Shown here: positions 4,441 to 46,700 of the stretch, piece by piece | Layout of the letters: every line of letters begins with the position of its first letter | Position numbering within the stretch: the stretch's first letter is position 1 | NCBI GenBank assembly: GCA_010093815.1 | Contig: ML996580.1 | DNA from: Pseudovirgaria hyperparasitica | Lineage: Eukaryota | DNA: 54,973 nt | Direction: 5' to 3' (one strand) | Position numbers and translations under genes: made by a program | The notes under the pieces: generated by a model | Seen by the model: only the letters and a program-made list of their open reading frames with translations | The model's database searches: none | Told to the model about the DNA's origin: nothing

Positions 4441-7400
4441 ATAATAATAATAATAATAATATTAGTAAACTAGGTAGAGTACCACTCTATAGGCGCATGC
4501 CTCCTCTAGTCTAAGCTACTATATAAGAAGAAACCTACGAATAGGAAAAACTCCCTTATATCCATGACTACGCTCTGTCTATCCTCTCGTTCTTTATATA
4601 TATATAGCCCTAGGGGCTACCTATAGGCCTATAGCCTATATTATAATGGTTTACCCTTAGGTAGCACGTATAGGTACGGAGATTATTAGTTAAGGGCTGC
4701 CCTTAACTAATAATCGCGGTTCTCCTAGGGTTCTTCCGACGTATACCGGGGTTCTTCCGGCATATATTAGGCTTCTTCCGGTATATATACGCGGGTCTAC
4801 TAGAACTAGGGGAGAGAAAGGTATACGAGCATCTATTAGGCGACGTCCTTAGGGTACTTATTAAGCTATCGCGTAATATTAGAGGTCCTTATTATACGGA
4901 CGAGGGCTTATCTTAGAGTATAGAGGCTAGAGCACGTCGCGAGGTAGTGGCGTATTATACCTCTCTAGCCGTAGTCCTTATACTAGGGAGATATATCTAG
5001 AACGCCTCTCTAGTAGAGGTAATATAGAAGACCTATAGCGCCTATTTAGGCTTAGAGGAGTATAGATACTTAGGCCTTCGTTAGCCCTTTATATATCTAT
5101 TTACTCGGTTCCTTCTAAGGCCCTCGGATCTATTCTAGATACCTATCCTATTAGGAGGCCCACTAGACTTTAAGTATCTCCCTCTATTTATCCTAGATCT
5201 ATAACTATATAACGCGGCTAAGCTCCTTAGGGCTCTATTAGCTCGGGACGGTATCCGGGTTATTTTAAACCTCCTACGCGGTCTAGCTTGAGTCCGCCTC
5301 TATATAGTATTTATATTATACTCGAGTTTATTCTATAGTAGAGAGGGCCTAGTAATACACGCGGATATATGTACGTAGTATAGCGAAGGTATATACCCTA
5401 TCTTCTCTACGTTCTTATACTTATTATTTAGTAAAGTATATAAGTCTCTATATCTAGTAGAAGTCCTATATACTTATTATGTTTATCTCGCGTCGGAGGA
5501 GCGTTATATTAGTAGCTTTATATACGCTAGAGATAAGGCGGAGTATACGGTTTTATATAGACTTAAGCTTTGCCCGCCGAGCTTATATAAGGGCCGTATA
5601 CTAGTACTTATATCTATATATAAAGGCTAGGCGTGCTAGGGAGACGTATAGCTATCTCGCCTTATCCCGGGCTATTCCCTACGTAGATACCGTAATCTAG
5701 CGTATAGCGGTTTCTATCTAGAGGGCTCTAGAGACGGCGTGTACTACCTATGGTCCCTATTTTAGCTTATTATTGATTATAACGCCGAGTGCACGTATAC
5801 TCTATGCTAGTAGTTCTATAAAGGTATCAATTTAGGGGCGACGTACCCCCTCCCTAGTAGCCTATTCTCTACGGCGGTTAATAAAGTATATAAGCTAGTA
5901 TTTTTTAGGTGCGAATTTTACTCTATAGTACTTTATCTACTAGACGTATTTCTCGTGGTCTCGTTCGAGTCGTGTATATATTCTACTAGTACTACTATCG
6001 ACCGTAAGGAGGTATATATCGTCCGCGTATCCGACTACCTCTATATATTCTATTCCCTAAAGAAGGTCTACTATAAAGAAGAGAAAGAGGATTAGGGAGA
6101 TGGTGCTCCCTTACGGGATGCCGTATACCGTCTCCTTATATTCGCTTCGGTATCCGGGGATATATATTTAAGTAGTCCTTTACGCGAGGAAGGACTATAT
6201 AAATCATATAATCTACTTAGGTATTCGCCTCATCCGGAGGTTATAGATAAGTCTTATATAGTTTACCTTATTAAACGCCTCTACTATGTCTAGGGAGAGT
6301 AGCGTAACGACTCGTCCTTATTTCTATATAGTCTAGATAACCTCGAGGATGTATTAAATGGCCGTGATTAGGGAGCTTTCTACCTTCGCCTTCTAGTTTA
6401 CTAGGAGAAGGCCGTGTACCTATACTACTATACTTATCTTCTTAGTAATCGTAGCTTCTAGTACCTTACTAAGGTAGAAGAGAAGGGCGATCGGCCTCTA
6501 TCCCTTCGGCGTGTTTAGACTCTTCCCTAGTTTTAGAAGTATAACCGTATATATAGTTCGGAAGCTCTATAGGTAGTATCCTATACGGGCGCACGCTCGG
6601 AATATATGGCCTATAATTAGTAAGGTCGCCTATATAGTCCTCTTAAGGCATCGATTTAGAATTCCGTCTAGCCTAGGCGCTTTATCGTTCGGGAGTATCT
6701 TAATAGCGCCGAGTATATTATCGTCCGTGATTTCCCTAGGGATACTTACGGCTTCCGGGTATTCCGTACCATTAATATCTAATAGGTCTATAGATTCTAG
6801 AAGAGGGAACATAATCTCTCGTAGAATCTCTATTTTCTTAAGGCTCGTAGAGTACGTCTTTTCTTAATATATAAGAGGGGGTATAAGTGGTATAGATGTC
6901 GGGGAGGCGGTACTTTTAGCCTATTTTACTATATACTATAGTCTAGTAGTATTACGTGTATATCTATCCGTGACTATACGCTACTATTTACGTCGCTCGT
7001 TACGGAGGACCTTATCTCGTTATCTTCTCGCCTCTCTCTATTTATCCTACGCTTTAGGTGTGCGGTTATAGTATACGCGTGTGTATAATCTCCGGACTTC
7101 TCGCCTATGCTCTCGCACTTAAGGTATACTTTTCGGGTCTAGGGGTCTATATATTCGGTACGGCACGTGTTTATCTCTTACTCCCTAGTACGCCTATAGG
7201 AGTATATTCACGGCCTAGTTAATGGCCGGGCCATTAGATACGTCGACTATAGACGGGTCTAGAATCGTCGATTCTAGGTCCTTTAGGTACTTTTCCTAGT
7301 TAGTATCCTTCTATAGCTATCGCCCTCGTTAGTCTTAAGGGGTAGATACGTCTATTATAGTCTCTATATATTCGTAGTCGGAGTCTATCTATATAAGGCT

Positions 7401-9739
7401 TAGGCGGTAGTATTAAGTCCTATTATAAATGTGTCTAGTAGCTAGGGTAAGGTCGAGTATAGATCCGCCCTTATCTTATTTATGTTTTCGCTAGGTAATC
7501 TATTCTACTAGTATAAGAAGATATAGGAAGCCGTAGTATCGGGTGTATAGTTCTCTAGCTCGAAGCTCTTCGCGGGTAACGGTTAGTCCACCCTACTAGC
7601 TATAATAGAGATTGAAGTCTCCTAGGAGGATATATTATCCTAGCTTAGTAGTACCCTTAAGTATATTATCCACCTAAAGCGATCGGTTCTAATTATATAT
7701 ATTATATATATGGAGGGGTCTAATGTTTATCTAGAGGTGTAGTATTATCCGGAGGTTATCCCGTTTAGTATATAACTATAATAAGAGTAGGATAGACTTA
7801 TAGACATGGAAGAGGACTCTCCTCTCCGGTCCTAGGGGGTTCATTATATAATATTCTAGGTGTGTTATTAGTTTATTCGTCTAGTAGTGTTTATATAGCT
7901 CCTATATAGCGAGTATTACAGCTCCGGTCTTCTCGAGGAGTATCGCCTAGTTCTTACATTTATACTATACGTTTACCTATATAATTAGAAGTATATCTTA
8001 GTCTCTCATTAGGTGCTAGGGAATATATAGACCTATATATTCGTTCCTCTAAGACGCGACTATCCTCGTACGGCGGCGGCCTTAGTAATTCCTTAGGGCT
8101 ATTCTATTATTAGCTTTCTCGGGACGGTTTACCATTTCTAACCGCTTCCTTATAAGGAGGTAGTCTATAGTAGTAGTATTATAGTAAAGAGAGGAACGGT
8201 AGTAGATCGTATCATTTATAGCTACCTTACTCCCTTTATCCGGATTAAGTAGATATATTTGGTAATCTATTTACGTTTCGCGCACGTAGCCGACTACGAC
8301 GGGTGCTTACCGTCGTAGTTAGAGTACTTCGCCGTGTCTCTATCCCTCTAGCCCTCTCCTCGTGTCCTATAGGGGTACTCCTAGGTACTATGTTCTTATC
8401 GATACCACCTATACCTAGTCTTTTAGAAGTACCGCTATGCCGTATACCCGTATCTCTAATAGTTAAAGCACTATATTATCGCCTATACTCTATTCTATAG
8501 TTCCGCTATAAGAAGCTCCCCTTCTACTAGGAATCTCTCTTATATAATTTAATACGTAAGGGCGGGGTCCTTAAGCTCTACTATTATAGTAGAGTATGCC
8601 TTTAATCTAGTTTTAATCCCTTATATATTCTTCTACCATACTCTTATAATCTTAATCCCTAGGTATTTTCACTTATTTAACTATTCTATCTGCGTGATAT
8701 CCTCTTCTCTAATAACCTATCCGCTTATAGATATAGAGTATATCTATATCGGGTATATGGCCGCCCTAATAGAGGCGCCTAGGAAGATACTACTAATCGC
8801 GTTCGGATCGCGCGAGATAGTCTACTACACGATATTCGTTATCGTAGTAAGTACTACTCCTCCTAGTATAAGTTTAGTAGCGACGACGTTTAACTATATT
8901 CCCTTTTATTCGTTAATCTTACTTACTATATCCTTTGGGGATGCTTGCTAGACCTATGCTAGGGTGTCCTTATCCTAGATTGCGACGCGTATACTATACG
9001 CCACGTCGCCGGTCCGGGGGGCCCGTGGTATAGCCTCTAGTATTACTACTATTTATACCTATGTACTAGGGCGCTTACCTTAAGTAAGTTCCTCCTGGAT
9101 TCTACGTAGGCTAGCCTCTATTCGGTCGAGTCTACCCTCCGGTTCTCCTAGTTATATCTTCTTCTCCTTCTCTATAATTCCCTTTAGATTCTAGATAAGG
9201 TTCTAGAATATATATAGGAGGGTCTTCTAGCCCTCTCCGGCTTCCTTCTCTATATATACTACCTAGTAGTTAATATAATCTAGGAGGGTTTCCCCTCTTA
9301 GGGTCCCCTTTATTCTATCTATCTATGGCGGCGTACGCCTTTAGGTGTATTCTATATTTTAGATAGGTGTATGGTTGCCCTTAGTAATATTACTATATGG
9401 CCTTTTCTATCGTACCGGTAGAGGTATATCCGGTATATACCGGGGTATGTCGGTGCCTAAGGCCGCTATATTTATTAGTTAAGGGCTACCCTTAACTAAT
9501 AAAAGGGGGTTGGCGTATCGGCGTTCTAGTAGCGTAGTCCGTGCCTCTATCTCCGTGAGGATTTTAAGAGGGTGTGTATATATCTTTATACGGCGATAAC
9601 GTCTTGGTTTCGACGCTACATGTACGTGTATATGGTAGTAGTTAGTGTACTCGGTGTACTCTATCGATTAAGGTATGTATCTCGCTATATTACCCCGAAT
9701 GGACCAAGTTGGCCTCTTAGGGATGTAAAAGAAGTTTTT
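4441..9739 (-). mobile_element. Full-length Tad-clade LINE (copy 1), RIPed
   Basis: (TTA)n 3' tail at 4441-4460; RT VGYADD (~6015-6040, minus); ORF 6630..6812 keeps KAPRLDGILN (KAPGxDG motif); endonuclease region ~7400-8000; ORF1 with CCHC knuckles (~8270-8480); colinear with the copy at 35321-40617. Confidence 0.9.
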
Positions 9740-11515
9740 ATAATAATAAGTATATCTTAGCTCCTTATTAGGTGCTAGGGAATGCTTAAATCTATATACT
9801 AGTAGTGTTAAGGCGTAACTATCCCTACGCGGTAGCTACCTTAAGAATATACTAGGGTTACCCTATCTTTCTCTATATAGTATACTATTATACGTTAGAC
9901 CCGCCTTCTTATAAGGTAGTTAGTATAGTCGTAGGTATAGTTAGAGTAGATAGTAGAGGTCTTATAGCCTATTATATCTACCTTACTTCTCTCGCCTTTA
10001 TAGCGTTAATATACTTAGTAACTTATTTATATTTTATATATATTACTAACTATAATAGGTAATTTCTATTATAGTTAGAGTACTTAGTAGTATCTTTATT
10101 ACGTATATAGTCCCCTTAGACTTTATATAGGTATTTCTAGGTACTATAGTTCTATTGGTACTATCTATAGATAGCCTTCTAAGAGTATCTCTACCCTATA
10201 TATCTTTATCTCTAGTAGTTAAAGTATTAGATTATTATCTAAGCTCTATTCTATAGTTCTACTATAAGTAACTCTCCCTTAGCTAAGAAGCCTTTCTATA
10301 TAATCTAATAGGCGAGGGTAGGGTCTTAGAGCTCTACTATTATAGTAGAGTACTTTTTTAATTTTACCTTAATCTCTTATACGTTCTTCTACTATACCTT
10401 TATAATCTTAATTCTAGAGTACTTCCGGTTATTAGATTATTCTATTTACTTAATATTATTAGCGCTAATAATATATCCCTAGATAGAGACTATATATATC
10501 TATATTAGATATATATTAGCGTAGACGGAGGCGCTAGGGAAGATATTATTAATTACGTTCGGGTTATAGAAGATAGTCTACTAGACTATATTAGTAGTAG
10601 TAGTTAGTACTATATCTTCTAGAGTAAGTTTAGCTATAACTATATTTAACTATATCTCTTTTTATTTATTAATCTTATTAATAATATTCTTTAGAGATAC
10701 CTTCTAGATCTATATAAGGACTTTCTTATTCTAGATAATAATCTATACGCTATATACTTCTTCTATAGATATCCTTAGTATTTAGATTATCCCGGTTATA
10801 CTATCTAATAGTACTATAACTTATATCTAAGTAGTTAGGCGTCTCTCCCGGGTAAGGCCTTCTTAGATTCTTAGTAGACTAGCCTTAATTTAGTCTAGTC
10901 TAGACTCCGGACTCGTTTCCGGTATCTATTTTACTTCTATAGTAAGCCCCTTAATATTCTAGACTAGGCTCTAGAAGATATTAAGGAGGGTAGTCTCTCT
11001 CTTCTTAACCTCCCTCTCTATATATACTATCTAGTATTTAATCTTATCTATAAGGGTATCCGTAAGTAGAGTTCTCTCTATCTTAGTTATCTATAGTACT
11101 TTACGCCTCTAGTTATTTTTCATTTTTTAGATAGTAGTTTAGTCGTTCTAGAATATACTACTATATAACTATTTCTATTATACTAGTAGTAGAGGTATAT
11201 CTAGCGGAAGCTAGGGTATATTAGTACCGGAGGCCGCTATAATTATTAGTTAAGGGCTGCCCTTAACTAGTAAAGGGGGTTAGCGTGTTAGCGTTTATTA
11301 GTAGTAGTCTATATCTATTACTCTAAATAGTTTTTAAGTATATATATATATAGTATCTCTATATATTAGTACCGTCGTGTATTATATACTATATATACGT
11401 ACGTATATCGGAAGTTATTATACTTAGTATACTCTATCGATTAATGTCTATAGATCGCTATATCGCCCCGAATTAACTAGTTTTAGTCTCTTAGAGTATG
11501 AGAAAGTTTTTTTTA
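9740..11515 (-). mobile_element. 5' half (5' UTR + ORF1) of a diverged Tad-clade LINE (copy 2)
   Basis: Colinear with 7990-9740, including the 5' UTR palindrome at 11243-11273; breaks off at the start of ORF2. Confidence 0.85.
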
Positions 11516-23181: not shown

Positions 23182-23407
23182 CTATCTTTGATATATCCAA
23201 ACATCTTTAGACAGTATACTGACACTAATCATCGGTGAACTTTCGAAAGTTGCTCCCCACTGAGTATGTCACATGTTGTACACCCACTAGCTGTATACCC
23301 ATACAATCGGACGAAGACAACTTTGTTCTACTTGGGCAGGTACTTGCTAGTGACATGTGAACCTTTGGCCACTATCTCTTTACCCATACATCTCAATTGT
23401 CACCACT

Positions 23408-30938: not shown

Positions 30939-32168
30939 ATGGAGACTAATAGCACTCCGGTCAGAGTGGTATCGCCGCCACCATTTGTCAGCCGAGAATT
31001 GTTCATGGTTGGTGCTCCAGAACTATGTTAAACTGAACTAAGACGTACCAGAGCTTCTCATGGGGTGGCACAGCGATGTGTACAGTCGCAGTGATCTGTC
31101 GGCTCATTGTACGGTGGTCGTCGTGGCGAAAATTGATGATCGACGACGTCTTCGTAGTAATCGCGTGGTTCCTACTTCTAGGCAGTGCTATCATCTGGCA
31201 ACTTTGTCATGATGGAATGTTTAGACTCATTCTAGTCTCGAGTGGTGTCGAACCAGAGCTTGCACGGGCACCAGGATTTGTTGCTTCTGCCGAGTACTTC
31301 TTACGCGGTAGTGCGGTATTTCTTATATTTCTGTACACGGGCTTGTGGTCGATCAAGATCTCGTTTCTACTGTTCTTTCGCCAGCTTGGTTTGAGGATAA
31401 GGTACTACCAGATTTTCTGGTGGGCTATCACAGCTCTAACAATCGCTACATGGACCGTCTGTATTGGGACAATACAATTTGAGTGCTTGTTAAAATCACT
31501 GGTCGAGATCACTGGACATTGCAATGACCCTGGAGGCACGGCTATCCACTGGCAGAAAGCAACTTTTGCTACTAACTGCACTTTCGATGTCGTCACTGAC
31601 GCCCTTAGTAAGATCTCTTTACTATGCTTCTTTTGATTTCTATTCACTAATCGATTACTTAGTTACAATGCTTCCAATCAGTCTTATCTGGAACGTCAAG
31701 ATAAATCTAAGAAAGAAGTTTATTCTTGCAGGTCTCTTTTCTCTTGTCGTGGTCACGGTTACCATTGCCATAGTACGAATCGCCATGGTCTACGGAGGAT
31801 CGCACATCAGCACTCGCGACCAACCAGAGGTTACTTGGCTCTACTTCTGGTCCATGATAGAGTTCTGTGTCGGTAGGTTGAGGTTCAATGAATTATTATA
31901 GCAAAACAGCGCACGTTGACACTGAGCAGCACTATTTGTTGTATGCATTGGATCCTTTAGGACGTTGTTTTCAGCTGATACAAAGCGCAAAGCGAATATC
32001 GGCCAAGTCGGGCGTATAGTGCACCAGGGCATAGATGGAATAGGGCAGATTACTACAGTAACTGGTGCCCGCTTACTACTACGACGGGGTGCAATAGTTG
32101 ACGAGTCCTATGACCTTGATACACTTGAGCCTTTCACGCCGTTAAGTTCCGAAACATCATGTATATAG
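30939..32168 (+). CDS. Second PTH11-like (fungal rhodopsin-domain) integral membrane protein, multi-exon
   Basis: ATG 30939; CRLIVR...IDDVFV, LWSIKISFLLFFRQL, DVVTDAL, WNVKINLRKK, WSMIEFCV, CIGSFRTLF; GT-AG introns link the ORF pieces. Confidence 0.85.
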
Positions 32169-32229
32169 ATAATAAGCTATACTTAGCTAGAAATCCGCTA
32201 TTAAACGTTATAAGAATCAACAAAGAATC

Positions 32230-32760
32230 GTAGTCTAGTACGATGATAGAATACTATCAAACTAAGAATAGATGGATGGAATTTAGATATCTTACTATCT
32301 ATAGAGTTTACTCCTTAGAAGAAGAAACTAGTTTATATAATCTATTTATATAGAGTAGATCTAGTACACCTAGGAAATATATTATCTATTAGTTATGTAA
32401 TACTTCAATATATATAGAAATAGTATATAGTATACTATACTAGTAGTCTTACTAGTAGAGTTATATAGTATTTAGACCGGATATTAATACTACTTAGTTT
32501 TTAGAATATATACTATAATAGATATTAATAGACTACCTTAATCTAGAATAATATTAGAGATAGCTAGATTTAAAGATAATACTATGTTCTATAATACTAT
32601 TTTTTCTATAAATATATTAGATTAGATATACTAAGTAAGATAGAATAGATATCTTATTATATATATATCTCTAGAGAGAGACTATTATTACTATGCTTAT
32701 AGATACTAAATGTTTTTTATAAAATATGTATATATTTTACTAGAGATAGTAAAAGTATAG
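32230..32760. repeat. AT-rich RIPed relic within the gene island
   Basis: Strong TpA enrichment, no ORFs; boundaries approximate. Confidence 0.55.
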
Positions 32761-33378
32761 GGTTAAGCCATTGTCGCGTAGTCTCGTGACACGCAAGTCT
32801 CATATTGACTTCGACTCTCTGCAGCGCTACAAGTGCCTGTTAGACCGGGCAGACGCCGTCCCGAGGAACACGAGTTACTTTACATAACCTCCAATGGCTC
32901 TGACGCCGGAATAGAGTCAAGCAAAGATTGCACTGTATTTGACGACCTTGATATACCATCGATGAAGCACACGCCGTGGTATCCATCCGAGTGCACGATT
33001 ACTACGGCGTGTGCTTCACGAGATCCGCGCAAGGTTGAGAGGCTTCGCGTTAGTCCGCGGCGCCTATTATCCATCTATGCCAGGCCTTTTATAGTCGACG
33101 CTCTCGAAATTGCTTTTAAATAAGGTTGAAATAGATCTTCTTCCAGGCCCGTGGACATAGATATAATTATCAATCTTCTAATCTTGTATCTGGTCGAAAA
33201 CTCTGTCCTCCATCTACATTTTCAGTCTTCTTAAAACAATTTTCTTAACACTCTTACTTTGTGTCGCACGCCGTCCTTGAAGCTACTACCCAATTGCCAC
33301 ATTCTACGCTAGGTTACTATAGTCAAGTAAGTCATGTCATTCATTATCGAAAGGATGGCTAATTAAGCAATTGCAGAA

Positions 33379-33825
33379 ATGGCAACGTACACACTCTCTA
33401 TTGTGGTTTACGGGGCAGGCGACGATCCCAAAAACCGGTCCCATTGGTCGCTTGTGTTTCATAGTGCTGGAGCAGACAGAGGCAATCTCTTGCAGGTCTC
33501 ACTTATAGATCGTGACCGCCTTTGGTACCAATTCGATCAACGCGACGACGTCACCATTCTTAGTCAAAGCGCCGAGGGCCGTTTTCAGATCGCCACTATT
33601 CCTGCGAACCGATATGCGCAAGCTAGCAAGGTTATTTGCAATGAGCCTCCCCCGAGGAATGGTAAAGACCGATGTCAAGATTGGACGCTGAATTGCATAG
33701 TTGGTCTTGAAGCTGACGAATTGATCCCTGACGGGACTTCTGCGTGGGTTGACGGACTTGTGGGAAAGTCGGCTACGGAACTGGCACAGGCATTAGGAGG
33801 ACGATGGATTGCCAATAGGAGATAG
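33379..33825 (+). CDS. 148-aa DUF6540-like protein (HW...CQDW; possible permuted papain-like fold)
   Basis: Single clean ORF with RSHWSLVF and PPP...RCQDWT motifs; 5' UTR intron 33327-33376 ends just before the ATG. Family call is from recalled motifs, not a search. Confidence 0.72.
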   Translation: MATYTLSIVVYGAGDDPKNRSHWSLVFHSAGADRGNLLQVSLIDRDRLWYQFDQRDDVTILSQSAEGRFQIATIPANRYAQASKVICNEPPPRNGKDRCQDWTLNCIVGLEADELIPDGTSAWVDGLVGKSATELAQALGGRWIANRR

Positions 33826-33868
33826 AGGGAATATGTCTTGCGCAGAAAGGGACGCTGCTTAGAGTCAT

Positions 33869-34786
33869 TTAAAATCCGCTGTACACTACAAGCTCCCTGT
33901 CAAGCTCCTCTAGAATTGAATAAACTTTCACGTCAGTTTCCCCAGCGAAGATAGAATCAATAGTCGCTTTCCATTCTGGGTTTCTTGCTCTTGATCGCGC
34001 TTCGTAATACTCTCTGTCCTTAATACTATATCCTGCAGATCCCCAATCGAGAATACCTGAGATTTTCCCATCCTTTACTAGAATATTGTCACGGTGAAGG
34101 TCACCATGAGTGAAAACAATATCAGGGTCTTGAAGGGTCTCGATGTTTTGTAGCAAAGACTCGTCTCTTGTGTCAAAGGTCTCAGGTGGCCTTGACATTT
34201 CCAAGGCACTTTTGAGGCCGGCGTTATATTCGACTCGGGTTTTATACGGGCCGTAACATGATTTAGATTTCTTGCGCATAGGGGAGTGCTTAAAGAAGAT
34301 ATCTTGGCATGGTTGGTAACCTAGAGCACCATAATAATCGCCTCGAAGCGTTCTCCATTCTTGAAGGTAACCTCGGAGCTCTTGGATTAGAGAATCCTTA
34401 GCCTCTAGCGATAGATTTGGCCACACGTCTGCTAGAGGTTCCCCTTCTAGTTGCGACATCAATATGTACCCAGAATCTCCTATTTCGCCGACCTGGTCGA
34501 CTCTGGCCACAGGTGCGGACGTTTGTGAAGCCACGAGAAGCATCGCTTCCGCTTCCGAGCGCGTGATGCCATAACCAATTTTCAATATCTGTTTCGTATC
34601 GGGAAATGATATAATTCTAGGACCGATTTTTTTCGGGCATATGTCTCTCGCATTATCAGGTAGTAAGATCTCATTTGCGAAAAGTAGAGCCAGGCTAAGA
34701 TAATGTCAGCTTAGGGACAATATGGAATTAAGATTATACTTGTGTGGAAGAGCCTCTTCTAGCGGTCTCGTATCATATGTGTTCAT
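33869..34786 (-). CDS. Aminoglycoside phosphotransferase / choline kinase-like (APH) protein, 2 exons
   Basis: HGDLHRDNILV and GILDWG motifs, LKIG...EAEAM N-lobe; ATG 34786 with intron 34695-34739 (GTATAA...GCTGAC...TAG) in frame with ORF 33869..34585. Confidence 0.88.
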
Positions 34787-35021: not shown

Positions 35022-35254
35022 TATATATTAGAGTAAATTTATAGTAGTATAGCTAGATAGAATAATAGAGTATATTCTATTATAGAATAAATTACTACTA
35101 AACTCTTTTAGTAGTAATTAAAGAGTATATATATATAAAGAGATACTAATCTATCTAGTATATAACCATTTACTATCTATTATACTATCTTCTAACTAAG
35201 TTACTAGCTATAATATATATAGATCTAGTCTCTATCTAATACTAAGTTCTACTA
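35022..35254 (-). repeat. Family D LTR (solo, inverted)
   Basis: Reverse complement matches 40782-41009. Confidence 0.8.
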
Positions 35255-35320
35255 TACTATATAATATAAAATATTAAGTATATCTATAGTACTTCTTATA
35301 AACCTTATATATATATTATA

Positions 35321-38300
35321 GACTAAAAAAAACTTCTTATACCCTAATAGACTAAACTAGTTAATTTAGGGTAAAATAGCGATTTACATATATTAAACGA
35401 TAGAGTATACCGAGTATAATAATCTCCGATATACATGTATATATATAGTATATAATACGCGACGATACTAACGTATAGAGATACTATATATATACGCTTA
35501 AAGACTCTTCGATAATACGAGTATAGACTATATCTAATAAACGCCGACACGCCGACCCCCTTTTATTAGTTAAGGGCTACCCTTAACTAATAACCATAGC
35601 GGCCTTAGGTATTATAATACCCCGGTATACGCCGGATATACCCCTACTAGTACGGTAGAAACGGCTATATAGCGATATTAATATAGATAGCTAGATACCT
35701 ATCTAAAATATAGGAACTAACTAAGGGTATAAAGTACTATAGATAACCTAGACTAAGGGGACCCTAAGAGGGGAGACCCTCCTAGATAAAATTAAATACT
35801 AGGTAATATATATAGAGAGGGACGCTAAGGAGGGAAAGAAGACCCTCCTTTATATATTCTAGGACCTTATCTAGAACCTAAGAGGAATCATAGAGAAAGA
35901 AAGGAAGTCGCCACGAGAGAAACCTAGTAGTAGGCTCGACTAAATAGAAGCTAGCCTATAGAGAATCTAGGAAGAGCTATTCTAAGGTAAGCGCCCTAAT
36001 ATATAGGCTTAGATTATAGTAATACCCGGAGCTACCGTACTAAGGACTACTAGGACTATAGATAGAGTATATAGTATATATATCGTAATCTAGGATAAGA
36101 ACACGCTAGCGTAGGTCTAATAGGCATCCCTAAAGGAAATTATAAATAAGATTAATAAATAGAAAGGAATGTAGTCGAGTGTTGTGGCTACTAAAGTTAC
36201 GCTAGATAGAGTAGTACTTACTACTATAACGAATACTACGTAGTAAAATATCTTACGAGATCCGAACGTAATAGATAGTATCTTCCCCGGCGCGTCTATT
36301 AGGGTAGCTATATACCCGATTATAGTACACGTAGTACCTATACGGGGATAGGCTATTAGAGCGGAGGATATTACGCGTATAGAATAATCTAACGCGCGAA
36401 AATACCCAGGGATTAAGATCGTAAAAGCGTGGTAGAAGAATCTATAGGCGATTAAGACGACGGCGAAAAAATACTCTACTATAATTATAGAGCTCCGAGA
36501 CCCCACCCTTATATAATATATTATATAGAAGGGATTCCTAATAGAAGGAGAGCTCCTTATAGCCGAGCCATAGAATAGAGTATAGGTAATAATATAGTAC
36601 TTTAACTATTAAGGGTATAGATATACTATATAAAGGTACTTATAGAAGACTAAGTGCGGATAGTACTATAGGGACCACGCTATCTAGGAGTGCCCTTATA
36701 AACCGCGAGGAGACGGACTAAGAAATAGGAATATAGTATAGTATTTAAACTACGATGGGAAACACCTATTATAGTTATTAACGTATATAAAATGTAAATA
36801 GATTATAGAATATATTCGTACGATAAAAGCGAGAGGCGCGAGATAGTTATAGAATATAATACCTACCACGAGCCCTTCCTTTATAACACCCCTAACTTTC
36901 CCTCTAGAAGGTAGTTAGGCGGGATAGTAGACTATCCCGAAGACGATAGGACGACTAAAAGGCATAGTTAAAGCCGCTACCGCGCGAGGATAGTCGCGCC
37001 TCCGAGGAATAAGTATATAGATATATATACTCTCTAGTACCTAATAAGGGACTAGAATATACTCTAAATTATATAGGTAAACGTATAATATAAAAGAGAG
37101 AACTAGGAGACGCTCCTTAAAGAGACCGGGGCTATAATACTCGCCATCTAGAAACCCTATAAACACTACTAGACGAGTAAACCAACCATATACCCCGGAT
37201 ACTATACTATATACCCTCTAGGACTAGAAAGATAAGTCCTCTTCTATATTCATAGATTAATACTACTCTTATTATGGTCGTATACTAAGCGTAATAACCT
37301 TAGAATAACACTACACCTATAAATAGATATAGGCCCCCTATATATATATAATATATATAACTAATAACGTATACTTATACTAGACGAGATGCTTAAGGGT
37401 ACTACGGAACCAGGGTAATATATCCTCCTAGGAGACTTTAACCTCTACTACTAATAGTAGGGAGGCCTAGCCGTAGTTAGAGAAGAACTTAGAGTAAGGG
37501 AACTACGTACCCGCTACCACGACTTTCTATACCTACTTATATCTATAGAATAAGTTATATAGAAAAAATATAAATAGAACGAAGACGGGTCTATGCTTAA
37601 CCTTACCTTCGCCACGGAGTATATTAGTTACCAGATCTAATACTACCGCCTAGGCTAGGTATAGACGGATTCCGACTATAAATATATAGAAACCGTAATA
37701 AACGTATATACCCCGAATAAATAATAGGGATAATAGATATAGAAGGACACTAACTAGGAAAAGTACCTAAAGGACCTAGAATCGGCGATTCTAGATCCCT
37801 CTATAGTCGATATATCTAACGACCTAGCCATAGACTAGGCCATATAGACACTCCTATAAATATACTAGAATACGAGAAATAAACACGTACTATACTAAAT
37901 ATACCGGCCCCTAGAAGTAAAGGGGATTCCTTAAGTATGGGAAAGTAGATAAGACGCCTAAAGGCTATATAGACGCGTACACCGTATAAGAATACCCGAG
38001 TTATAGAAAGAATAGAAGGAAGTAATATAATAACGCGATAAAGTCCTCTATAACGAAAGGCGTAAATAGTAGCGTATAATTACTAGTTAATAGACACGAT
38101 ACGTAATAGGGCTATAGTATATAGTAAAATAGGCCAAGGGCGTAGATACTCCGATACCCCTACTACTTATACCTCCCCTAATATATTAGGGGAGAATATA
38201 CTCCACGGGCCTTAAGAAAACTAAGGCTCTATAGAAGGCTATATTCCCTCTCCCGGAACTAGTAGACCTATTAGACGTTCACGGCGCTAAATATCTATAC

Positions 38301-40590
38301 GCGGTAGATATCCCCGAAGAAGTTACGGAGGAGGATATACTTAATATTATTAAGATACTTCTAAATAATAAAGTACCTAGACTAGATAGAATTCTAAATT
38401 AATATCTAAAAAGCACTATAAAAGCGACCCTACCGCTTATTACTCGTATATTCTAAGCATACGTCACGTAGGGGTACCACCCCTAGAGCTTCCGAGTCGT
38501 CTATACTATTATACTTCCGAAACTAGGAAAGAGCCCTAACTCTCTAAAGGGATAGAGACTAATCGCCCTTCTCTTCTATCTAGGTAAGATACTAGAGGCT
38601 ATAATAGTAAAGAAGATAAGTACCGCGGTATAGGAATATAATCTCCTCCCTCTAAACCAGAAGGTAAAGATAGATAGCTCCCTAATAATAGCTATCTAAT
38701 ATATTATTAAAGTCGTCTAGGCCGTATAGAAATAGGGACGGGTAGTATCGCTTCTTTCCCTTAATATAGCCGGAGCGTTTAATAAGGTAAACTATATAAG
38801 ACTTATTTATAACCTCCGGATGAGACGAATACTAGAATAGATTATACGCTTTATATAGTTATTCCTTATAGGAAGAATAACTTAGATATATATTTCTAGG
38901 TACTAGAGCGAATATAAAGAGACGGTATACGGCATTCTATAAGGGAGTACTATCTCTCTAATTCTATTTCTCTTCTTTACGGTAGACCTTCTTTAAGAAA
39001 TAAAGTATATAGAGATAGTTAGATACGCCGATAATATATACCTTCTAGCTATTAATAATAATACTAACCGAACGTATAGATAACTAGAATAGAACTATAA
39101 GAGGTATCTCTAGTAGGTAAAACGCTACGGAGTAAAGTTCGCCCCGGAGAAATACTAGCTTATATACTTTATTAATCGTTAAGGGAAATAGGTAACTAGG
39201 GAAGGCGAATAACGCCCCCGAATTAACGTATTTAACGAACTACTAGTATAAAGTATACACGTGCTCGGAGTTATACTAGATAGTAAGCTTAAATAGGGAC
39301 CATAAGTAGTATACGCTGTCTCTAGGGCCCTCTAGATAGAAGCCGCTATATAATAGATTATAGTCTCCACGTAGAGAACCGCCTAGGATAAGGCACGCTA
39401 GCTATATATATCTATAGCACGACCCGCCTTTATATATAGACACGAGTGCTAGTATACGGCCCTTATATAGACTAGGCGAATAAAGCTTAAATCTATATAG
39501 AATAGTATACTCCGTCTTATATTAGGCGTATATAAAGCTACTAACACGGTACTACTATAACGCGAGATAGACGTTATAAGTATATATAACTTCTACTAGA
39601 TATAGAGGGTGGTATACTTTACTAAATAATAAGTATAGGAACGTATAGGAAACGTAGAATATACTTTCGCTACGCTACGCGTATAAATTAGTATATATTA
39701 CCGTGTACTTCTATATATAGGCCGGAATCGAATACGGTATAGATGCTTAATAGAAGCTAACTCTAGCTAAGTAGTATAAGAAGTCCGAGATAACCTAGAC
39801 GCTCTTCTAGACTAGTAGAGCCTTTAAGAACTCGTGAAAAATATACGGTCGTAGACTTAAGATAAGTAGAAAGAGGCACTCCGTACCTACTAGACCTTCT
39901 AGTAGAATAGGTACCTAGAGTAGATTTAAGGGCTATAGAAGGAACTAAGTAAATAGATATATAAAGGGCTAACGAAAGTCTAAGTATCTATACTTATCTA
40001 AGCCCGAACGGGCGCTATAGAACTCCTATACTACATCTATAAGAGAGGCGTTCCCGATACCTCTCTATAGTATAAGGCGTGCGGCCGGAGAGGTATAATA
40101 CGCTACTATCTAGCTATATACCCTAACCTCTATATATAATGGTAATAGCTTATCTACGTTATAAAGACTTTAGATATCGTATAATAGCTTAATAAGTACC
40201 CTAAGGACGTCTCCCGATAGATACTTATATATCTACTACTCCTCTAGTACTAGTAGACCCGGAAATATATGCCGGAAGAGACCCGGTATACGCCGGTAGT
40301 AACCCGATATATACCGGAAGAACCCTAGGAGAACCCTAATTATTAGTCGAGGGCAGCCCTTAACTAATAACCTCCGTACCTATATATACTACCTAAGGGT
40401 AAAATAATAGTAATATAGGCTATAGGCTAATAGGCGTACTCTATAGCTATATACTTAAGACGAAATAGAGGTTTAACGAGATGTAGTTATAGATATAAGG
40501 AAGTTTTTCTCTATAGGGTTTCTTCTTATATAGTGGCTTAGACTAGAGGAGGCATAGGCCTATAGAGTACTACTCTACCTAGTTATATAA

Positions 40591-40617
<27 letters not shown>
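35321..40617 (+). mobile_element. Full-length Tad-clade LINE (copy 3), RIPed
   Basis: 5' UTR, ORF1 with CCHC knuckles (~36595-36795), endonuclease, RT GYADD (~39020), C-terminal CxxC...HxxxxC, (TTA)n tail; 15-bp TSD TATATATATATTATA (35306-35320 / 40618-40632). Confidence 0.92.
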
Positions 40618-40627
<10 letters not shown>

Positions 40628-40781
40628 TTATAATTTTACTTTAAGAAGTAGAGATAGACCTATGCAGGTTACTATTTAAGTATATAGTTTAAGCGAGATC
40701 ACGTGATACCCCTATTCTAGTTCTATTTATCTTAGCTCTAACATATAATATTAAAGACAAGGTAAAGCTAAAGTCTATAAC

Positions 40782-43700
40782 TATTAGAACTTAGTCTTAG
40801 ATATAATCTAATCTATATATACCTTAGCTAATATAGTTAGAAGATAGTATAAAGGGCGGTAAATAGTTATATACTAGATAGATTAGCGTCCCTTTATATA
40901 TATACTCTTAGATTTCTACTAAAAGGGTTTAGTAGTAATTTATTCTATAATAGAATATACTCTATTATTCTATCTAACTATACTACTATCTAATAACCCT
41001 ATTCTTATATTTAAATTACTATCTATATAGTACTATAATTAAGATAGTCTAACTAGAACTAAGAAGGTTAACACAATCTACTATAGAGATAAGTAATACT
41101 ATATTAAATAATAGAAATCCTCTATAATTAATATTAACTCTAGCTATTTCTAACTAAGAAGTAGAGATATTAGACTAAATTATAGAGCTTTTAGATAAAG
41201 AAATAGTAGATATACTAAGTAACTTCTAATAATATAAAGCTAGATAATAAGTTATAGTAGAGCTATATAAGATATTATAATAAACTATTACTAAACTTTA
41301 GAAATATATTGCGAATTAGATTTAAGAGATTTAAACTCTTAAAGAGTAGATAGAATATATAAAACTCCTTATAAAGAGATAAGAACTTAAGGAGTCTCTT
41401 AAAGAACTACACTAAATAATAGTAGGTAGATAACTTTCTATACTAATTTAGGCGGAATTAGTTTATCTACTATTAGAGTTATAATAATCTACTATACTCC
41501 TAGCTACTTTATTACCGATTTACCCTACTTCTTCTCTAGATATACTAAAATCTAAAGATCTAACTATATTTATAGAGAAGAACTAAAAGAAGTAGAAAGA
41601 CTAGAAGAGAGACTATAAAAAGTACTTTCTTAATAACCCTCTACTCTTTTCTACTAAAGTATAATATATTTTATTCGGAGAATAATACCTAGACTTATAA
41701 TTCTATAATTAATAGAATAGATAGAAGGAAGTATAATAATAATAATAATAATATTATATAACTAGGTAGAGTAGTACTCTATAGGCCTATGCCTTCTCTA
41801 GTCTAAGCCACTATATAAGAAGAAACCCTATAGGGAAAAACTTCCTTATATCTATAACTATATCTTATTAAACCTCTATTTCGTCTTAAGTATATAGCTA
41901 TAGAGTACGCCTATTAGCCTATAGCCTATATTACTATTATTTTACCCTTAGATAGTATATATAGGTACGGAGGTTATTAGTTAAGGGCTGCCCTTAACTA
42001 ATAATTAGGGTTCTCCTAGGGTTCTTCCGGTATATATCGGGTTACTACTAGTGTATACCGGGTCTCTTCTAGTATATATTTCTAGGTCTACTAGTACTAG
42101 AGGAGTAGTAGATATATAAGTATCTATCGGGAGACGTCCTTAGGGTACTTATTAAGCTATTATATAATATCTAAAGTCTTCGTAACGTAGATAAGCTATT
42201 ACCGTTATATATAGAGGTTAGGGTATATAGCTAGATAGTAGCGTATTATACCTCTCCGGCCGCACGCCTTATACTATAGGGAGGTATCGGGAACGCCTCT
42301 CTTATAGATATAGTATAGGAGTTCTATAGCGCCCGTTCGGGCTTAGATAAGTATAGATACTTAGGCTTTCGTTAGCCCTTTATATATCTATTTACTTAGT
42401 TCCTTCTATGGCCCTCGAATCTACTCTAGATATCTATCCTACTAGAAGGTCTAGTAGGCACGGAGTGCCTCTTTCTACTTATCTTAAGTCCACGACTATA
42501 TATTTTTTACGAGTTCTTAAAGGCTCTACTAGTCTAGAAGAGCGTCTAGGTTATCTCGGACTTCTTATACTACTTAGCTAGAGTCGGCTTCTATTAAGTA
42601 CCTATACCGTATTTAATTCCGGCCTATATATAGAAGTACACGGTAATGTATACTAATTCGTATATATAGCGCGGCGAAAGCATATTCTACGTTTCCTATA
42701 CGTTTCTATACTTATTATTTAGTAAAGTATACCACCCTCTATATCTAGTAGAAGTTATATATACTTATAACGTCTATCTCGCGTCGTAGTAGTACCGTGT
42801 TAGTAGCTTTATATACGCCTAATATAAGACGGAGTATACGGTTCTATATGGATTCGAGCTTCATTCGCCTAGTCTATATAAGGGCTATATACTAGTACTC
42901 GTGTCCGTACGTGAAGGCGGGTCGTGCTATAGATATATATAGCTAGCGTGCCTTATTCTAGGCGGTTCCCTACGTGGAGGCTATAATCTATTATATAGCG
43001 GCTTCTATCTAGAGGGCCCTAGAGACGGCGTATGCCACTTATAGTCCCTATTTAAGCTTACTATCTAGTATACCTCCGAGCGCGCGCATGCTTTATACTA
43101 GTAGTTCGTTAAATACGTCGATTTGGGGGCGTCGTTCGCCTTCCCTAGTTACCTATTTCCCTTAACGATTAATAAAGTGCATGAGCTAGTATTTCTCTAG
43201 GGCGAACTTTACTCTATAGCGTTTTACCTACTAGAGGTACCTCTCGTGGTCCTATTCTAGTTATCTATACGTTTAGTTAGTATTATTATTAATAGCTAGA
43301 AGGTATATATTATCGGCGTATCCGACTACCTCTATATACTTTATTCCTTAAAGAAGGTCTACTATAAAGAAGAGGAATAGGATTAGAGAGATGGTGCTCC
43401 CTTATAGGATGCCGTATACCATCTCTTTATATTCGCTCTAGTACCTAGGGATATATATCTAAGTTATTCTTTCTATAAGGAATAACTATATAAAGCGTAT
43501 AATCTATTCTAGTATTCGTCTTATCCGGAGGTTATAAATAAGTCTTATATAGTTTACCTTATTAAACGCTCCGGCTATATCGAGGGAGAGGAGCGATACT
43601 ACCTATCCCTATTTCTATACGGCCTAGACGACTTTAATAATATATTAGATAGCTATTATTAGGGAGCTATCTACCTTTACCTTCTGGTTTAGAGGGAGGA

Positions 43701-46700
43701 GATTATATTTCTATACTATGATACTTATCTTCTTTACTATTATAGCCTCTAGTATCTTATCTAGGTAGAAGAGAAGGGCGATTAGTCTCTATCCCTTTAG
43801 GGAGTTAGAGCTCTTTCCTAGTTTCGGGAGTATAATAGTATAGGCGACTCGGAAGCTCTAGGGGTGGTATCCCTACGTGACGTATACTTAGAATATATGA
43901 GTAATAAGTGGTAGGGTCGCTTTTATAGTACTTTTTAGGCATTAATTTAGAATTCTATCTAGTCCGGGTGCTTTATTATTTAGGAGTATCTTAATAATAT
44001 TAAGTATATCCTCCTCTATAACTTCTTCGGGGATATCTACCGCGTGTAGATATTCGGCGCCGTGAATATCTAATAGGTCTACTAGTTCCGGGAGAGGGAA
44101 TATGGCCTCCCGTAGGGCCTTAGTTTTCTTAAGGCCCGTGGAGTATGTTCTCCCCTAATGTATTAGGGGAGGCATGAGTGGCGGGGGTGTCGGAGTATCT
44201 ACGCCCTTGGCCCATTTCGCTATGCGCCATAGCCCTGTTACGTGTCGTGTCTGTTACCTCTAGTTCGAAGTCGGATGACTCCTATAGGTTCGACGTGCCC
44301 TATACCATTAGACCCTACTCCTGTTTTCGCCTTATCTTATCCCCTTTAGACTTATATCTCCGGCTCTACTAGAAGAGGGGCACGACGCCTTATCTAGCTA
44401 GGAAACTACGAGGTTTACTTCTTAAACTCATGTTACTAGCGTACGTGCCTAGCGACACGTTCTATCTCTTTATAAATTAATACGCGCATCCGTTCTCTCG
44501 GGCTATATAGTAGTCTCCCCGGCTAGGACGTGATCCCGTCTACTTCTAGATATACTAAAGGTTAGAGCCTATTAAAGGGGTAAGGTTCTTAGAGCTAGTA
44601 GTTACTACTATATACTACGCCCCGCCTTTAAGTATAGCTACTATCTAGTTTCGCGTTACCTATAAGGATCTCTCTATAATAGGCCGACCGTGTCTTATAG
44701 GCGAGTATCCTTTAAATTCTATACGTGTATACTTACGTGACGCGCCTAGGCGACTTAAGTATCCTCTATCTACTAACCCGACTTGTTTCTACTACTTTTT
44801 AATAGGTCTCTATAGCCGCCTCTTACCTATGTCCGTGTACTATTATCTATATATACTAGCGCCCTACCTCCTACGGTAGACTATAATATCTCTCGTACAC
44901 GGGAGCCGCTCTATCTATCCTAGACCTAAGCGGTATCCCGTATCGAGCGAAAGGTCTTAATAGAGTCACGCTGCTAGTGGTCGCGCTAGGCGTCTTAATA
45001 AACGTAGTTTAATACTATAGGAGAGTTAGCCTTAATAAGTTCATCCGTAGTAGTTTATAGTTACCCTTAATATAATTTCTCGCTAATCCTTACGTACCTA
45101 GAGCCATTTAAGCCTCGAGGTATCCTATCGCGCTACTAGGACTTCCGCTTTCTCTACCCATATGGTAAGGTAAATTTAGGCCTGCTTTCGACATAGTAGT
45201 AGCGCGTTAGATGGTTTTCTTATCCCGGTATCCTCGTGGACTCCTCTTAACGCGTTAATTAAGAATAGGATAGGAGTATATACTATCCTAGCTGGTTTAT
45301 TATGGTGTGGTCTCTATAGAGTAACGCGTCGCGAAAACTCTATAACTACCTACCTAGCGATGATAAGGTCGCCATTAACGCCGCTCCGAACCTCTTACTA
45401 CCTCCGAAGAGGCATTGCCTAGCTACGATAACGTGGACGCGGTTCGTGAGACTTCGTAGCCATAGAAGGAAGTATAGCTACTATCTATAATAACCTAGAA
45501 ATATTTAGCTATATTTATACTAAATACCCTTAGAACGGATAGAGAATATAAAAGAAAGATACTATCTAAGTTAAGAAGCGTAGTATAATAACTAAACTAG
45601 ACATCTACTTAACTACTATAATACCTCTAAAATCTATAGAATAATATCCCTATACTATAGAAAAATATTTATATATTCTAGTTTCGCGAAGTACTACTCC
45701 TATTAATCTATAAAAGACTAGGAATAGTATTATTAAGTTTTAACTATCTATATAAATTAGAGAAGAAAGCTAATAAATACTACTATATCCTTAAGAAATA
45801 TAGCTCTTTAGATAAAACTAATAAACCCTATATAGATTAGAAATAAGGTTAATTAAATACATTCGATTAAGAGTAACCTTACTATAATTAGTACTAGAAG
45901 AGTATAAATTAGAGTAGAAACGTATTAAGAGGATACTAAAATAATTAAGGTAGTACTTCTTAATATAGAAAAGAATAAGATATAGGCTTAAATATAATAT
46001 CTATTATAAAATAGTAGAATTATAGTATACTTCGTTACTATAAGTATAGAGAAATAGAATATATTATATCTAACTATAAGAATCTAAAAAAAGAATAGAC
46101 TAGTACGTAAGATCTAACTATATTCTTAGCTAAATTATATATACTTAGAAGAAGCTATAGTATCTTCTAGTAAGTAAAGATCTAATATTACTAAAAGTAT
46201 CGTTATCTATAGTAAATAGTAATAAAACTATATAGACCCTTATAGATACTAGTATAGAGAATAACTATATTTTATTAATTCTTATAAAGGAGTATAGATT
46301 ATTATATAATCTTAGTAAAGTTAGCTAAACTATTATAGTTAATAGATATAAAGTTAGAACTTTAGATAAAGCTATAATAAATTATAAAGTTTATAACTTA
46401 AAGATAATAAAATAGTAGATATCTAATAAATTTATTATAGCTAATATTAGCTAATAGAATATAATTCTAGAGATACCTTAGCTTAAATATCTAAATCTAA
46501 TTCTTAATTTTTAGAAGAAGATATTAACGTTCCGATAATACTATAGTAAATTATACTAGTAAGTTATAACTATTAGTAAGGAGGTATAGAACCTTACTAT
46601 ACGGACCTAATTATTACTAATCTATCTTATATTCTTATTAATTATTAATAAAGATAAGGATAATAGTAATAATTAGGGCGAAGATATACTATCTAATATA

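What the first reader, a model, noticed from the sequence alone, without database searches (positions are those of the whole stretch)
41721..45476. LINE-captured 1.2-kb hairpin-rich sequence: a chimeric (MINE-like) retroelement
Seen: one 15-bp TSD (ATAGAAGGAAGTATA) encloses a 2.5-kb LINE 3' end and a 1205-bp segment (44257-45461) that matches none of the LINE copies here in either orientation, so it is not a twin-priming inversion. In LINE sense it has no recognisable coding motif but several hairpins: TGCCTC-TTCG-GAGGTA (a cUUCGg tetraloop, 45399-45414), AGGATAG-N9-CTATCCT (~45267-45289) and CTACC-N6-GGTAG (~44864-44879). It is itself RIPed, which suggests other genomic copies. Known: LINE template switching makes such chimeras; MINE of Magnaporthe is a ~1.1-kb non-coding transcript fused to a truncated MGL LINE. 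Inference: the segment is a cDNA of an abundant structured RNA (unknown ncRNA, rRNA spacer, or satellite/viral RNA) mobilised by the Tad LINE.
Basis: partly seen in the sequence, partly recalled or inferred. Interest (0 to 1): 0.8.

Follow-up and report, generated by a model that had tools for sequence, protein, structure and literature searches.

The report
LINE-fused non-coding head: MINE-like retroelement
A fungal LINE retrotransposon copied a 1.2-kb non-coding RNA onto the front of its own truncated copy and inserted both as one unit, and the same "head" sequence turns out to be a conserved, folded element fused to LINEs in several other fungi.

Summary
An exact 15-bp target-site duplication (41721, 45462) encloses a microsatellite-tailed, 5'-truncated LINE 3' end (41736-44256, minus sense, RT domain present). 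It also encloses a 1205-bp RIPed segment (44257-45461) with no match elsewhere in the window, in Rfam or in Pfam. Contigs of public runs hold the empty site.

In another sample of the same species label, the same segment end is fused to a different LINE position (941 nt instead of 2521 nt from the LINE 3' end). This is the pattern of Magnaporthe MINE elements.

Eighty metagenome loci hold homologues of the segment (the "head"). These heads have fixed 5' and 3' termini. They join LINEs at 25 or more different positions and join several LINE families. Target-site duplications were found in 8 of 8 complete units.

The head is non-coding. It shows no codon periodicity, no codon-position bias, and mostly non-triplet indels. 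Its roughly 350-nt core keeps a secondary structure across 13 homologues.

The claim that the window copy is "hairpin-rich" is not above chance.

Verdict: this is a genuine MINE-like chimeric retroelement in a Pleosporales fungus, a new member of a known kind. The conserved, structured head is the interesting part. Homology to Magnaporthe WEIRD could not be tested.

The parts
41721..41735 (.). Left copy of the 15-bp target-site duplication
   Evidence: It is an exact repeat of 45462-45476 and these are the only two hits in the window. Contigs in run X1 join 41699-41720 directly to 45462 onward, which is the empty site.
41736..41753 (-). LINE 3' microsatellite tail, (ATA)6 on the + strand, abutting the TSD
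   Evidence: Read from the sequence. All three LINE copies in the window carry the same tail.
41736..44256 (-). 5'-truncated LINE 3' part, 2521 nt, RIPed
   Evidence: It is 93.1% identical to copy B and 74.1% to copy A.
43177..43809 (-). Reverse-transcriptase domain of the LINE part, read with X at RIP-made stops
   Evidence: Pfam RVT_1, E 2.3e-10, residues 150-360 of the frame that starts at 44256.
44257..45461 (-). Full-length non-coding 'head', 1205 nt, RIPed. In LINE sense its 5' end is at 45461 and its 3' end at 44257.
   Evidence: Matches in runs X3 and X4 stop exactly at both ends. The 5' terminus aligns with the fixed terminus of metagenome heads. The head is collinear with heads of 1424-1849 nt over its whole length. 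No coding signal was found.
44362..44717 (-). Conserved core of the head with a conserved secondary structure
   Evidence: blastn gives 65-74% identity to 57 loci. The structure has 97 pairs with 95.2% of cells paired, and no shuffle of 500 reaches the observed values.
45399..45414 (-). 5'-proximal hairpin (6 bp, UUCG loop) at a position where homologous heads also form a hairpin of different sequence
   Evidence: Alignment A6 and folds of five homologues. The window copy alone is not more stable than shuffles (z -0.15).
45462..45476 (.). Right copy of the 15-bp target-site duplication
35262..40656 (+). LINE copy B, the near full-length reference copy used to place the breakpoint. It lies tail-to-tail with the chimera.
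   Evidence: RVT_1 E 4.5e-12.
4444..9801 (-). LINE copy A, an older or more divergent reference copy
   Evidence: RVT_1 E 7.8e-14; Exo_endo_phos_2 E 0.0036, below the Pfam cut-off.

Best explanation
Bases 41736-45461 are one retrotransposition product of the MINE type. It was made by the LINE machinery and later mutated by RIP.

Shown: the LINE endonuclease and RT inserted a single cDNA at a site now marked by a 15-bp duplication. That cDNA consists of the last 2521 nt of the LINE plus its microsatellite tail. Upstream of the LINE part, in the same sense, lies a complete copy of a discrete 1205-nt non-coding 'head'.

Shown: the head belongs to a family conserved across fungi (the window's Pleosporales host, Lindgomyces, and fungi in metagenomes). 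The family has fixed 5' and 3' termini and a structurally conserved core. It is fused to many different LINE truncation points and to several LINE families.

Inferred mechanism: target-primed reverse transcription started on the LINE RNA tail. The RT left the LINE template about 2.5 kb in, most simply by running off a broken 5' end. It then jumped to the 3' end of a head RNA held in or near the LINE particle, copied it to its 5' end, and the cDNA was joined to the target.

Inferred: the head is a selfish RNA that spreads as a preferred acceptor for template jumps. The head promoters of existing chimeras would supply new head RNA.

For this particular copy the junction may have been made de novo or inherited from a parent chimera.
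For: - The TSD is exact and rare.
- The empty site is present in 5 contigs of run X1. Their loose end equals 41699-41720.
- The LINE identity, RT domain and breakpoint are established.
- The head is a repeat in the genome.
- In runs X3 and X4 the match stops exactly at 44257 and at 45461. The sequence left of 44257 maps, with purines and pyrimidines collapsed (2 mismatches in 30), to the homologous LINE position in all 3 window LINE copies (42647-42676, 5356-5385, 39697-39668). That is a second junction, 941 nt from the LINE 3' end. A LINE contig of X4 runs through 44255 as ordinary LINE.
- In X1, 7 contigs diverge at 44257 with only 0.45 agreement, which points to varied partners.
- Among the homologues, 26 of 27 loci share one head 5' terminus with unrelated upstream flanks.
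- The head 3' terminus occurs 65 times, each time with a different downstream sequence. 27 of the 65 map to one LINE family at 25 or more positions, and others map to diverged LINEs.
- TSDs were found in 8 of 8 complete units against 1 of 56 mismatched controls, and in 13 of 26 loci that carry a 5' terminus. The tails are (TAA)n, (TAC)n-like or A-rich.
- The window head aligns end to end with these heads (score 1028 against 645-686 for shuffles), and it starts at their conserved first bases.
- The head is non-coding.
- The core structure is conserved.
- The architecture equals that described for MINE (PMC2104539, sections 3 and 4 read).
Against: - No RNA evidence exists for a head-only transcript or for its 3' end, so the template jump is inferred from DNA products alone.
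- For this copy, a de novo junction cannot be told from inheritance.
- The GCC|A/U motif reported at MGL chimerisation sites is absent at both junctions seen here.
- 38 of the 65 head 3' ends did not map to the reference LINE by blastn. 36 of these were tested further, and 23 of the 36 also had no tblastx hit, so some partners may not be LINEs.
- The covariation is partly confounded, because RIP turns G-C into A-U in any inverted repeat. Only 9 pairs carry transversion-type compensation, against 1-5 in slid controls.
- The structure was predicted on the same alignment on which it was counted.
- The window copy itself shows no excess folding.
Confidence: 0.85

Rival explanations
1. This copy was not made by a fresh template jump. 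It is the retrotransposed transcript of an older head-LINE chimera with the same junction, so the family behaves as a non-autonomous retrotransposon mobilised in trans through its LINE 3' end.
For: The head family has many copies. Among the metagenome loci, two pairs share a junction: L022 with L070, and L010 with L037 within 9 nt. MINE transcripts are reported in Magnaporthe (PMC2104539, section 4).
Against: Most junctions differ: 25 or more of 27. In the window's species label, 2 of 2 differ. This rival modifies the main explanation rather than replacing it.
Confidence: 0.35
2. The head is a cDNA of an ordinary cellular housekeeping non-coding RNA gene, as was proposed for WEIRD. It was captured because it is abundant, and it is not a selfish element.
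For: Its termini are fixed, its core structure is conserved and it is non-coding. These traits would suit a functional RNA.
Against: No Rfam family matches it, including in a less RIPed copy. No LINE-less source locus was recognised among the 80 loci. The head is fused to several LINE families in several fungi and is RIPed like a repeat.
Confidence: 0.2
3. The head is the 5' end of a LINE subfamily, and the chimeras are internally deleted or spliced LINE RNAs.
For: Some metagenome units carry 5.2-5.6 kb of LINE behind the head.
Against: Window LINE copies A and B reach their 5' regions without any similarity to the head. The head joins different LINE families that have different tails. Neither junction in the window's species follows an AG acceptor.
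Confidence: 0.05
4. The head is an independent transposon that nested beside the LINE, or it is a twin-priming inversion.
For: None beyond the juxtaposition itself.
Against: One TSD and one empty site bound both parts together. The head has no LINE sequence on its far side. It matches no LINE copy in either orientation. 8 of 8 homologous units have a TSD around the head plus LINE.
Confidence: 0.02

Closest known systems
MINE (WEIRD-MGL chimeras) of Magnaporthe grisea/oryzae, as described in PMC2104539
   Same: Both have a full-length non-coding head of about 1.1-1.2 kb fused in sense to a LINE 3' part of variable length. Both are flanked by 10-20-bp TSDs and have many different junctions. Multi-part forms also occur: L059 and L066 carry extra head-3' modules.
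   Different: The host is a Pleosporales (Dothideomycetes) fungus, not Magnaporthales. The head has homologues in several fungi, whereas WEIRD was reported to have none. The head pairs with several LINE families. The GCC|A/U junction motif was not seen. Sequence homology to WEIRD could not be tested.
U6 snRNA-L1 and other LINE-mediated chimeric retrogenes of mammals (as summarised in PMC2104539, section 3)
   Same: Both involve a template switch from LINE RNA to the 3' end of a second RNA, a full-length 5' partner, and a TSD.
   Different: Here the partner is a long, family-specific RNA that matches no known small RNA.
End-to-end template jumping of non-LTR reverse transcriptases
   Same: It explains a constant acceptor 3' end joined to variable donor 5' ends without any sequence homology.
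   Different: It is a biochemical model only. No assay exists for this LINE.
SINEs with LINE-derived tails
   Same: Both are non-autonomous and depend on a LINE.
   Different: The head is not derived from tRNA, 7SL or 5S. The head is more than 1 kb long. The LINE part varies from about 0.1 to more than 5 kb.

Membership tests
MINE-type bipartite chimeric retroelement | The 5' part is a full-length copy of a discrete RNA | tested here: met
   Matches in X3 and X4 stop at 44257 and 45461. The 5' end aligns with the fixed terminus of six homologous heads. The head aligns end to end with homologous heads.
MINE-type bipartite chimeric retroelement | The 3' part is a 5'-truncated LINE with its tail | tested here: met
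MINE-type bipartite chimeric retroelement | Truncation points differ among copies | tested here: met
   The LINE part is 2521 nt here and 941 nt in X3/X4. In the homologous loci, 27 junctions fall at 25 or more positions.
MINE-type bipartite chimeric retroelement | Both parts are joined directly in the same transcriptional sense | tested here: met
   Taken in LINE sense, the head matches the loci on the strand that also carries their RT. No filler lies at 44256/44257.
MINE-type bipartite chimeric retroelement | Flanked by short direct repeats | tested here: met
   A 15-bp TSD, the empty site, and TSDs in 8 of 8 homologous units.
MINE-type bipartite chimeric retroelement | The head is non-coding | tested here: met
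   No Pfam hit. No purine periodicity (p 0.77). No codon-position bias (p 0.92) and 81 of 105 indel runs are not multiples of three.
MINE-type bipartite chimeric retroelement | The head RNA is expressed | not testable with these tools
   No RNA run was available for this.
MINE-type bipartite chimeric retroelement | The head is homologous to WEIRD | not testable with these tools
MINE-type bipartite chimeric retroelement | GCC|A/U motif at the chimerisation site in the LINE | tested here: not met
   Read. In LINE sense the donor context is ...CAGT|CAAC here and ...CTTT|CGCC in X3/X4.
SINE | Head derived from tRNA, 7SL or 5S, with a short fixed LINE-like tail | tested here: not met
   ARAGORN found none and Rfam found none. 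The LINE part is variable in length.
Tad1-clade LINE (for the 3' partner) | APE endonuclease plus RT, and clade placement by RT phylogeny | tested here: inconclusive
RVT_1 is clear. Exo_endo_phos_2 was seen only in copy A and below the Pfam cut-off. The relatives found carry APE plus RT domains.

The most novel reading that the evidence does not exclude
The head is an evolutionarily conserved, structured non-coding RNA that is a specialised parasite of LINE particles. It would be a class of non-autonomous retroelement with no LINE-like 3' end of its own. It would spread only by serving as the acceptor for end-to-end template jumps. It would work with several LINE families across Dothideomycetes and could be the same lineage as Magnaporthe WEIRD. 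That would recast WEIRD as a selfish element rather than a cellular RNA.
Probability: 0.4. Interest if true: 0.8.

Novelty: new member of a known kind. Interest (0 to 1): 0.6.

Why it matters
In the paper library searched, MINE-type chimeras are described for one fungus only. The nature of their 5' partner, WEIRD, was left open there, and no relatives were known. Here the same architecture appears in a distant class of fungi. Its head has homologues in several genomes, fixed termini, a conserved fold and several LINE partners.

This gives a comparative handle on a mechanistic question: what makes one RNA the preferred acceptor when a LINE reverse transcriptase switches templates?

It also flags an annotation error. 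Two 'uncharacterized proteins' of Lindgomyces ingoldianus (P0048, P0049) are translations of this non-coding head.

Tried and rejected
- No whole genome is held for this window.
- The scan's earlier findings gave nothing by place, by sequence or by words.
- No RNA holder was listed among the sequencing runs, so expression is untested.
- Rfam at E up to 1 gave nothing on the window segment or on a less RIPed head. ARAGORN found nothing.
- An exact 28-mer of the head found no metagenome contig.
- Counting TGA stops per frame as a coding test was uninformative, because RIP removes TG in every frame.
- The apparent similarity of the 3' flanks of the three LINE copies dissolved on alignment. It was 64% column identity in AT-rich sequence. 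It is compositional, so the copies are independent insertions.
- TSDs for copies A and B were sought, but only low-complexity candidates turned up.
- Using L010 as the reference first gave wrong head and LINE boundaries and no TSDs, because L010 is itself truncated. L039, L036 and L060 gave the correct boundaries.
- One script failed on my own pattern and was corrected.
- P0046, the top phmmer hit (2157 aa, 11 stretches, highly repetitive), was dropped as a low-complexity match.
- The RT search gave only distant APE+RT relatives at 22-27% identity, so the LINE clade was not assigned.
Full report
**Setting.** The window is a fungal transposon nest made of AT-rich, RIP-mutated blocks around one gene island (composition, RIP indices). 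A kinase-like protein from the island is 93% identical to one from a Phaeosphaeriaceae species. The next hits are other Pleosporales. The host is therefore a Pleosporales fungus, not Magnaporthe. No whole genome is held for the window.

**The observation.**
- The 15-mer ATAGAAGGAAGTATA occurs exactly twice, at 41721 and 45462. Shuffles give a mean of 0.11 matches, and 1 of 100 shuffles had two or more.
- An (ATA)6 run follows the left copy directly. All three LINE copies in the window carry this run at the same end.
- Bases 41736-44256 match LINE copy B (40608-38088) at 93.1% over 2521 nt and copy A (4444-6941) at 74.1%.
- The minus-strand frame holds a reverse-transcriptase domain (RVT_1, E 2.3e-10). 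Copies A and B hold it too, and copy A has a weak endonuclease match below the Pfam cut-off.
- Homology to both copies ends at 44256/44257.
- The next 1205 nt, up to the right TSD copy, hit nothing else in the window. This holds for blastn with word size 7 and for a transition-tolerant local alignment (285 against shuffle tops of 259 and 284). An inverted LINE piece from twin priming is therefore excluded.
- The segment is as RIPed as the LINE (TA/AT 2.05).
- Rfam finds nothing at E up to 1. Pfam finds nothing credible in six frames read with X at stops.

**One insertion, and a repeat.** Contigs of four public runs were laid on 43500-46200.
- Runs X1 and X2 come from one sample and may be the source of the window. 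They place thousands of variant contigs on the segment, so the segment is a repeat family. Comparing summed depths with the depths of two long contigs suggests several dozen to about a hundred copies. The tool warns that contig depths are poor measures, so this is only a rough estimate of mine.
- Five X1 contigs that lie on 45462 onward carry, just before it, a loose end identical to 41699-41720. This is the empty target site in paralogous copies of the host repeat. LINE part and segment therefore arrived together.

**A second junction.**
- Runs X3 and X4 are another sample of the same species label, of unknown library type. They hold much less RIPed relatives, and the differences are almost all A>G and T>C.
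- Their match to the segment begins exactly at 44257 and ends exactly at 45461. The contigs run on into unlike sequence on both sides.
- The 30 letters left of 44257 match, with purines and pyrimidines collapsed (2 mismatches), the homologous position of all three window LINE copies: 42647-42676, 5356-5385 and 39697-39668.
- So the same segment end is fused there to a LINE part of 941 nt instead of 2521 nt.
- An X4 LINE contig runs through 44255 as ordinary LINE.
- In X1, seven contigs leave the segment at 44257 with only 0.45 agreement among their loose ends, which fits varied partners.

**Homologues elsewhere.**
- A phmmer scan was run with one LINE-sense frame of the segment, with X at stops. 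It found two 'uncharacterized proteins' of Lindgomyces ingoldianus and one metagenome protein at 42-45% identity over about 70 residues. A fourth, repetitive hit was dropped.
- tblastn places the match at 44408-44699, with a frame shift inside it.
- A search of metagenome contigs with the matching part of the metagenome protein returned 80 loci. In total 205 stretches matched and 87 were confirmed.
- Taken in LINE sense, the segment matches 57 of the 80 loci over its core (positions about 757-1075 of 1205) at 65-74% identity. It matches five loci from position 212 to 1097.
- A transition-tolerant global alignment shows the whole 1205 nt to be collinear with heads of 1424-1849 nt. The columns are 62-66% identical, 24-27% transitions and 10-11% transversions, and the score is about 1028 against 645-686 for shuffled targets.

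**Anatomy of the family in the loci.**
- 26 of 27 loci that hold the head's start share one 5' terminus, with unrelated sequence upstream.
- The window segment starts at the same conserved bases, and its differences there are mostly of RIP type.
- The head's 3' terminus occurs 65 times, and the sequence after it differs each time.
- 27 of the 65 map by blastn to one LINE family at 25 or more different positions. That family has an RT domain.
- 36 of the 38 that did not map were tested by tblastx. Eight touch diverged LINE-like coding sequence. Five reach the LINE only after extra head-3' modules. 23 gave nothing, and many of those had little sequence left.
- All 8 units with both ends on the reference family have a 10-17-bp TSD. 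The TSD abuts the head's first base and follows the LINE tail. The mismatched control gave 1 of 56.
- A search from the 5' flank alone found TSDs in 13 of 26 loci. The sequence before the TSD was a (TAA)n tail in nine, (TAC)n-like in one, A-rich in two and another kind in one. The head therefore rides with several LINE families.

This is point for point the architecture described for MINE in Magnaporthe: a full-length 1.1-kb non-coding WEIRD, MGL parts of 230-5461 nt, 28 junction sites, and TSDs of 10-20 bp (PMC2104539; I read sections 3, 4 and 11).

**What the head is.** It does not look coding.
- Purine periodicity, which RIP cannot alter, is absent (p 0.77). It is present in a gene (p 3e-5), in LINE ORF1 (p 1.5e-4) and weakly in the LINE 3' part (p 0.049).
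- A composition classifier that picks the true LINE frames finds no coding frame in the head.
- A less RIPed head has no Pfam hit in three frames.
- In an alignment of 13 homologues, variable columns (73/74/77) and transversion columns (29/28/26) are spread evenly over codon positions (p 0.94 and p 0.92). 81 of 105 internal gap runs are not multiples of three. The Lindgomyces 'proteins' are therefore translations of non-coding DNA.

The same alignment supports a conserved fold of the core.
- It has 97 pairs with 95.2% of cells paired.
- 41 pairs have changes on both sides, against 20.1+-2.7 in shuffles (0 of 500 reach the observed value) and 7-15 when partners are slid.
- One caveat is that RIP changes CpA and its complement TpG, so it turns G-C into A-U in any inverted repeat. 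Counting only transversion-type compensation leaves 9 pairs, against 1-5 in slid controls.
- A second caveat is that the structure was predicted from the same alignment.

The window copy as a whole is not hairpin-rich.

**Mechanism.**
- Shown: this is one TSD-bounded cDNA with a LINE tail, a LINE 3' part and a full-length head. The head's 3' end is fixed, the LINE break points vary, and the partners include several LINE families.
- Inferred: reverse transcription was primed at the target on the LINE tail. The enzyme left the LINE RNA at a variable point, jumped to the 3' end of a head RNA and copied it to its 5' end. End-to-end jumping of non-LTR enzymes is recalled from my own knowledge and was not read here.
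- The head's conservation and fold suggest that it is held close to the LINE particle.
- Tandem extra head-3' modules in L059 and L066 fit repeated jumps, like the tripartite chimeras of the Magnaporthe paper.
- Neither junction of the window's species shows the GCC|A/U motif reported for MGL or an AG splice acceptor (read).
- Whether this copy's junction is new or inherited from a parent chimera cannot be told here.

**Novelty.** Four searches of the paper library found fungal LINE chimeras of this kind only in the Magnaporthe paper, and none for Dothideomycetes. Subscription journals are not covered. I file the element as a new member of a known kind. The conserved, structured, multi-partner head is the part that deserves follow-up.

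Noticed in passing
window 38085-40656 and 41686-44259: LINE copy B and the LINE part of the chimera lie tail to tail about 1.1 kb apart. They form a 2.5-kb inverted repeat of 92.5-93% identity. Their flanks beyond the tails are unrelated, so they are separate insertions and not a duplication.
   Followed up: partly
window 9739-11785: A second LINE piece covers only the 5' 2 kb of the element (it matches copy B at 35063-37073 with 68% identity). It abuts the 5' end of copy A in the same orientation. It could be a head-to-tail array, a LINE-LINE chimera or a partial duplication; this was not resolved.
   Followed up: partly
window 18679-34705: A gene island that RIP has not affected (GC 0.42-0.48) lies between the RIPed blocks. 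It holds open frames for an AMP-binding enzyme and a kinase-like/APH protein. From the translations alone it also appears to hold a hydrolase-like frame, a methyltransferase-like frame and two membrane proteins.
   Followed up: partly
L059 6620-7060; L066 6607-8101: In these metagenome units the last 380-525 nt of the head is repeated two to four times in tandem before the LINE part. Each repeat ends at the same head 3' terminus.
   Followed up: partly
P0048, P0049 (Lindgomyces ingoldianus); P0047 (metagenome): These annotated proteins are translations of the non-coding head. By eye, the first half of P0047 looks like a hAT transposase fragment, which suggests a fused gene model.
   Followed up: partly
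window 45111-45158 in run X3: A short stretch is covered by a contig of much higher depth (about 3192) in X3 only. The cause is unknown.
   Followed up: no
L011, L045, L074, L030 (ends of the units): Heads in the same metagenomes are joined to LINE parts with different tails: (TAC)n-like, A-rich and another kind. Each unit has its own TSD.
   Followed up: partly
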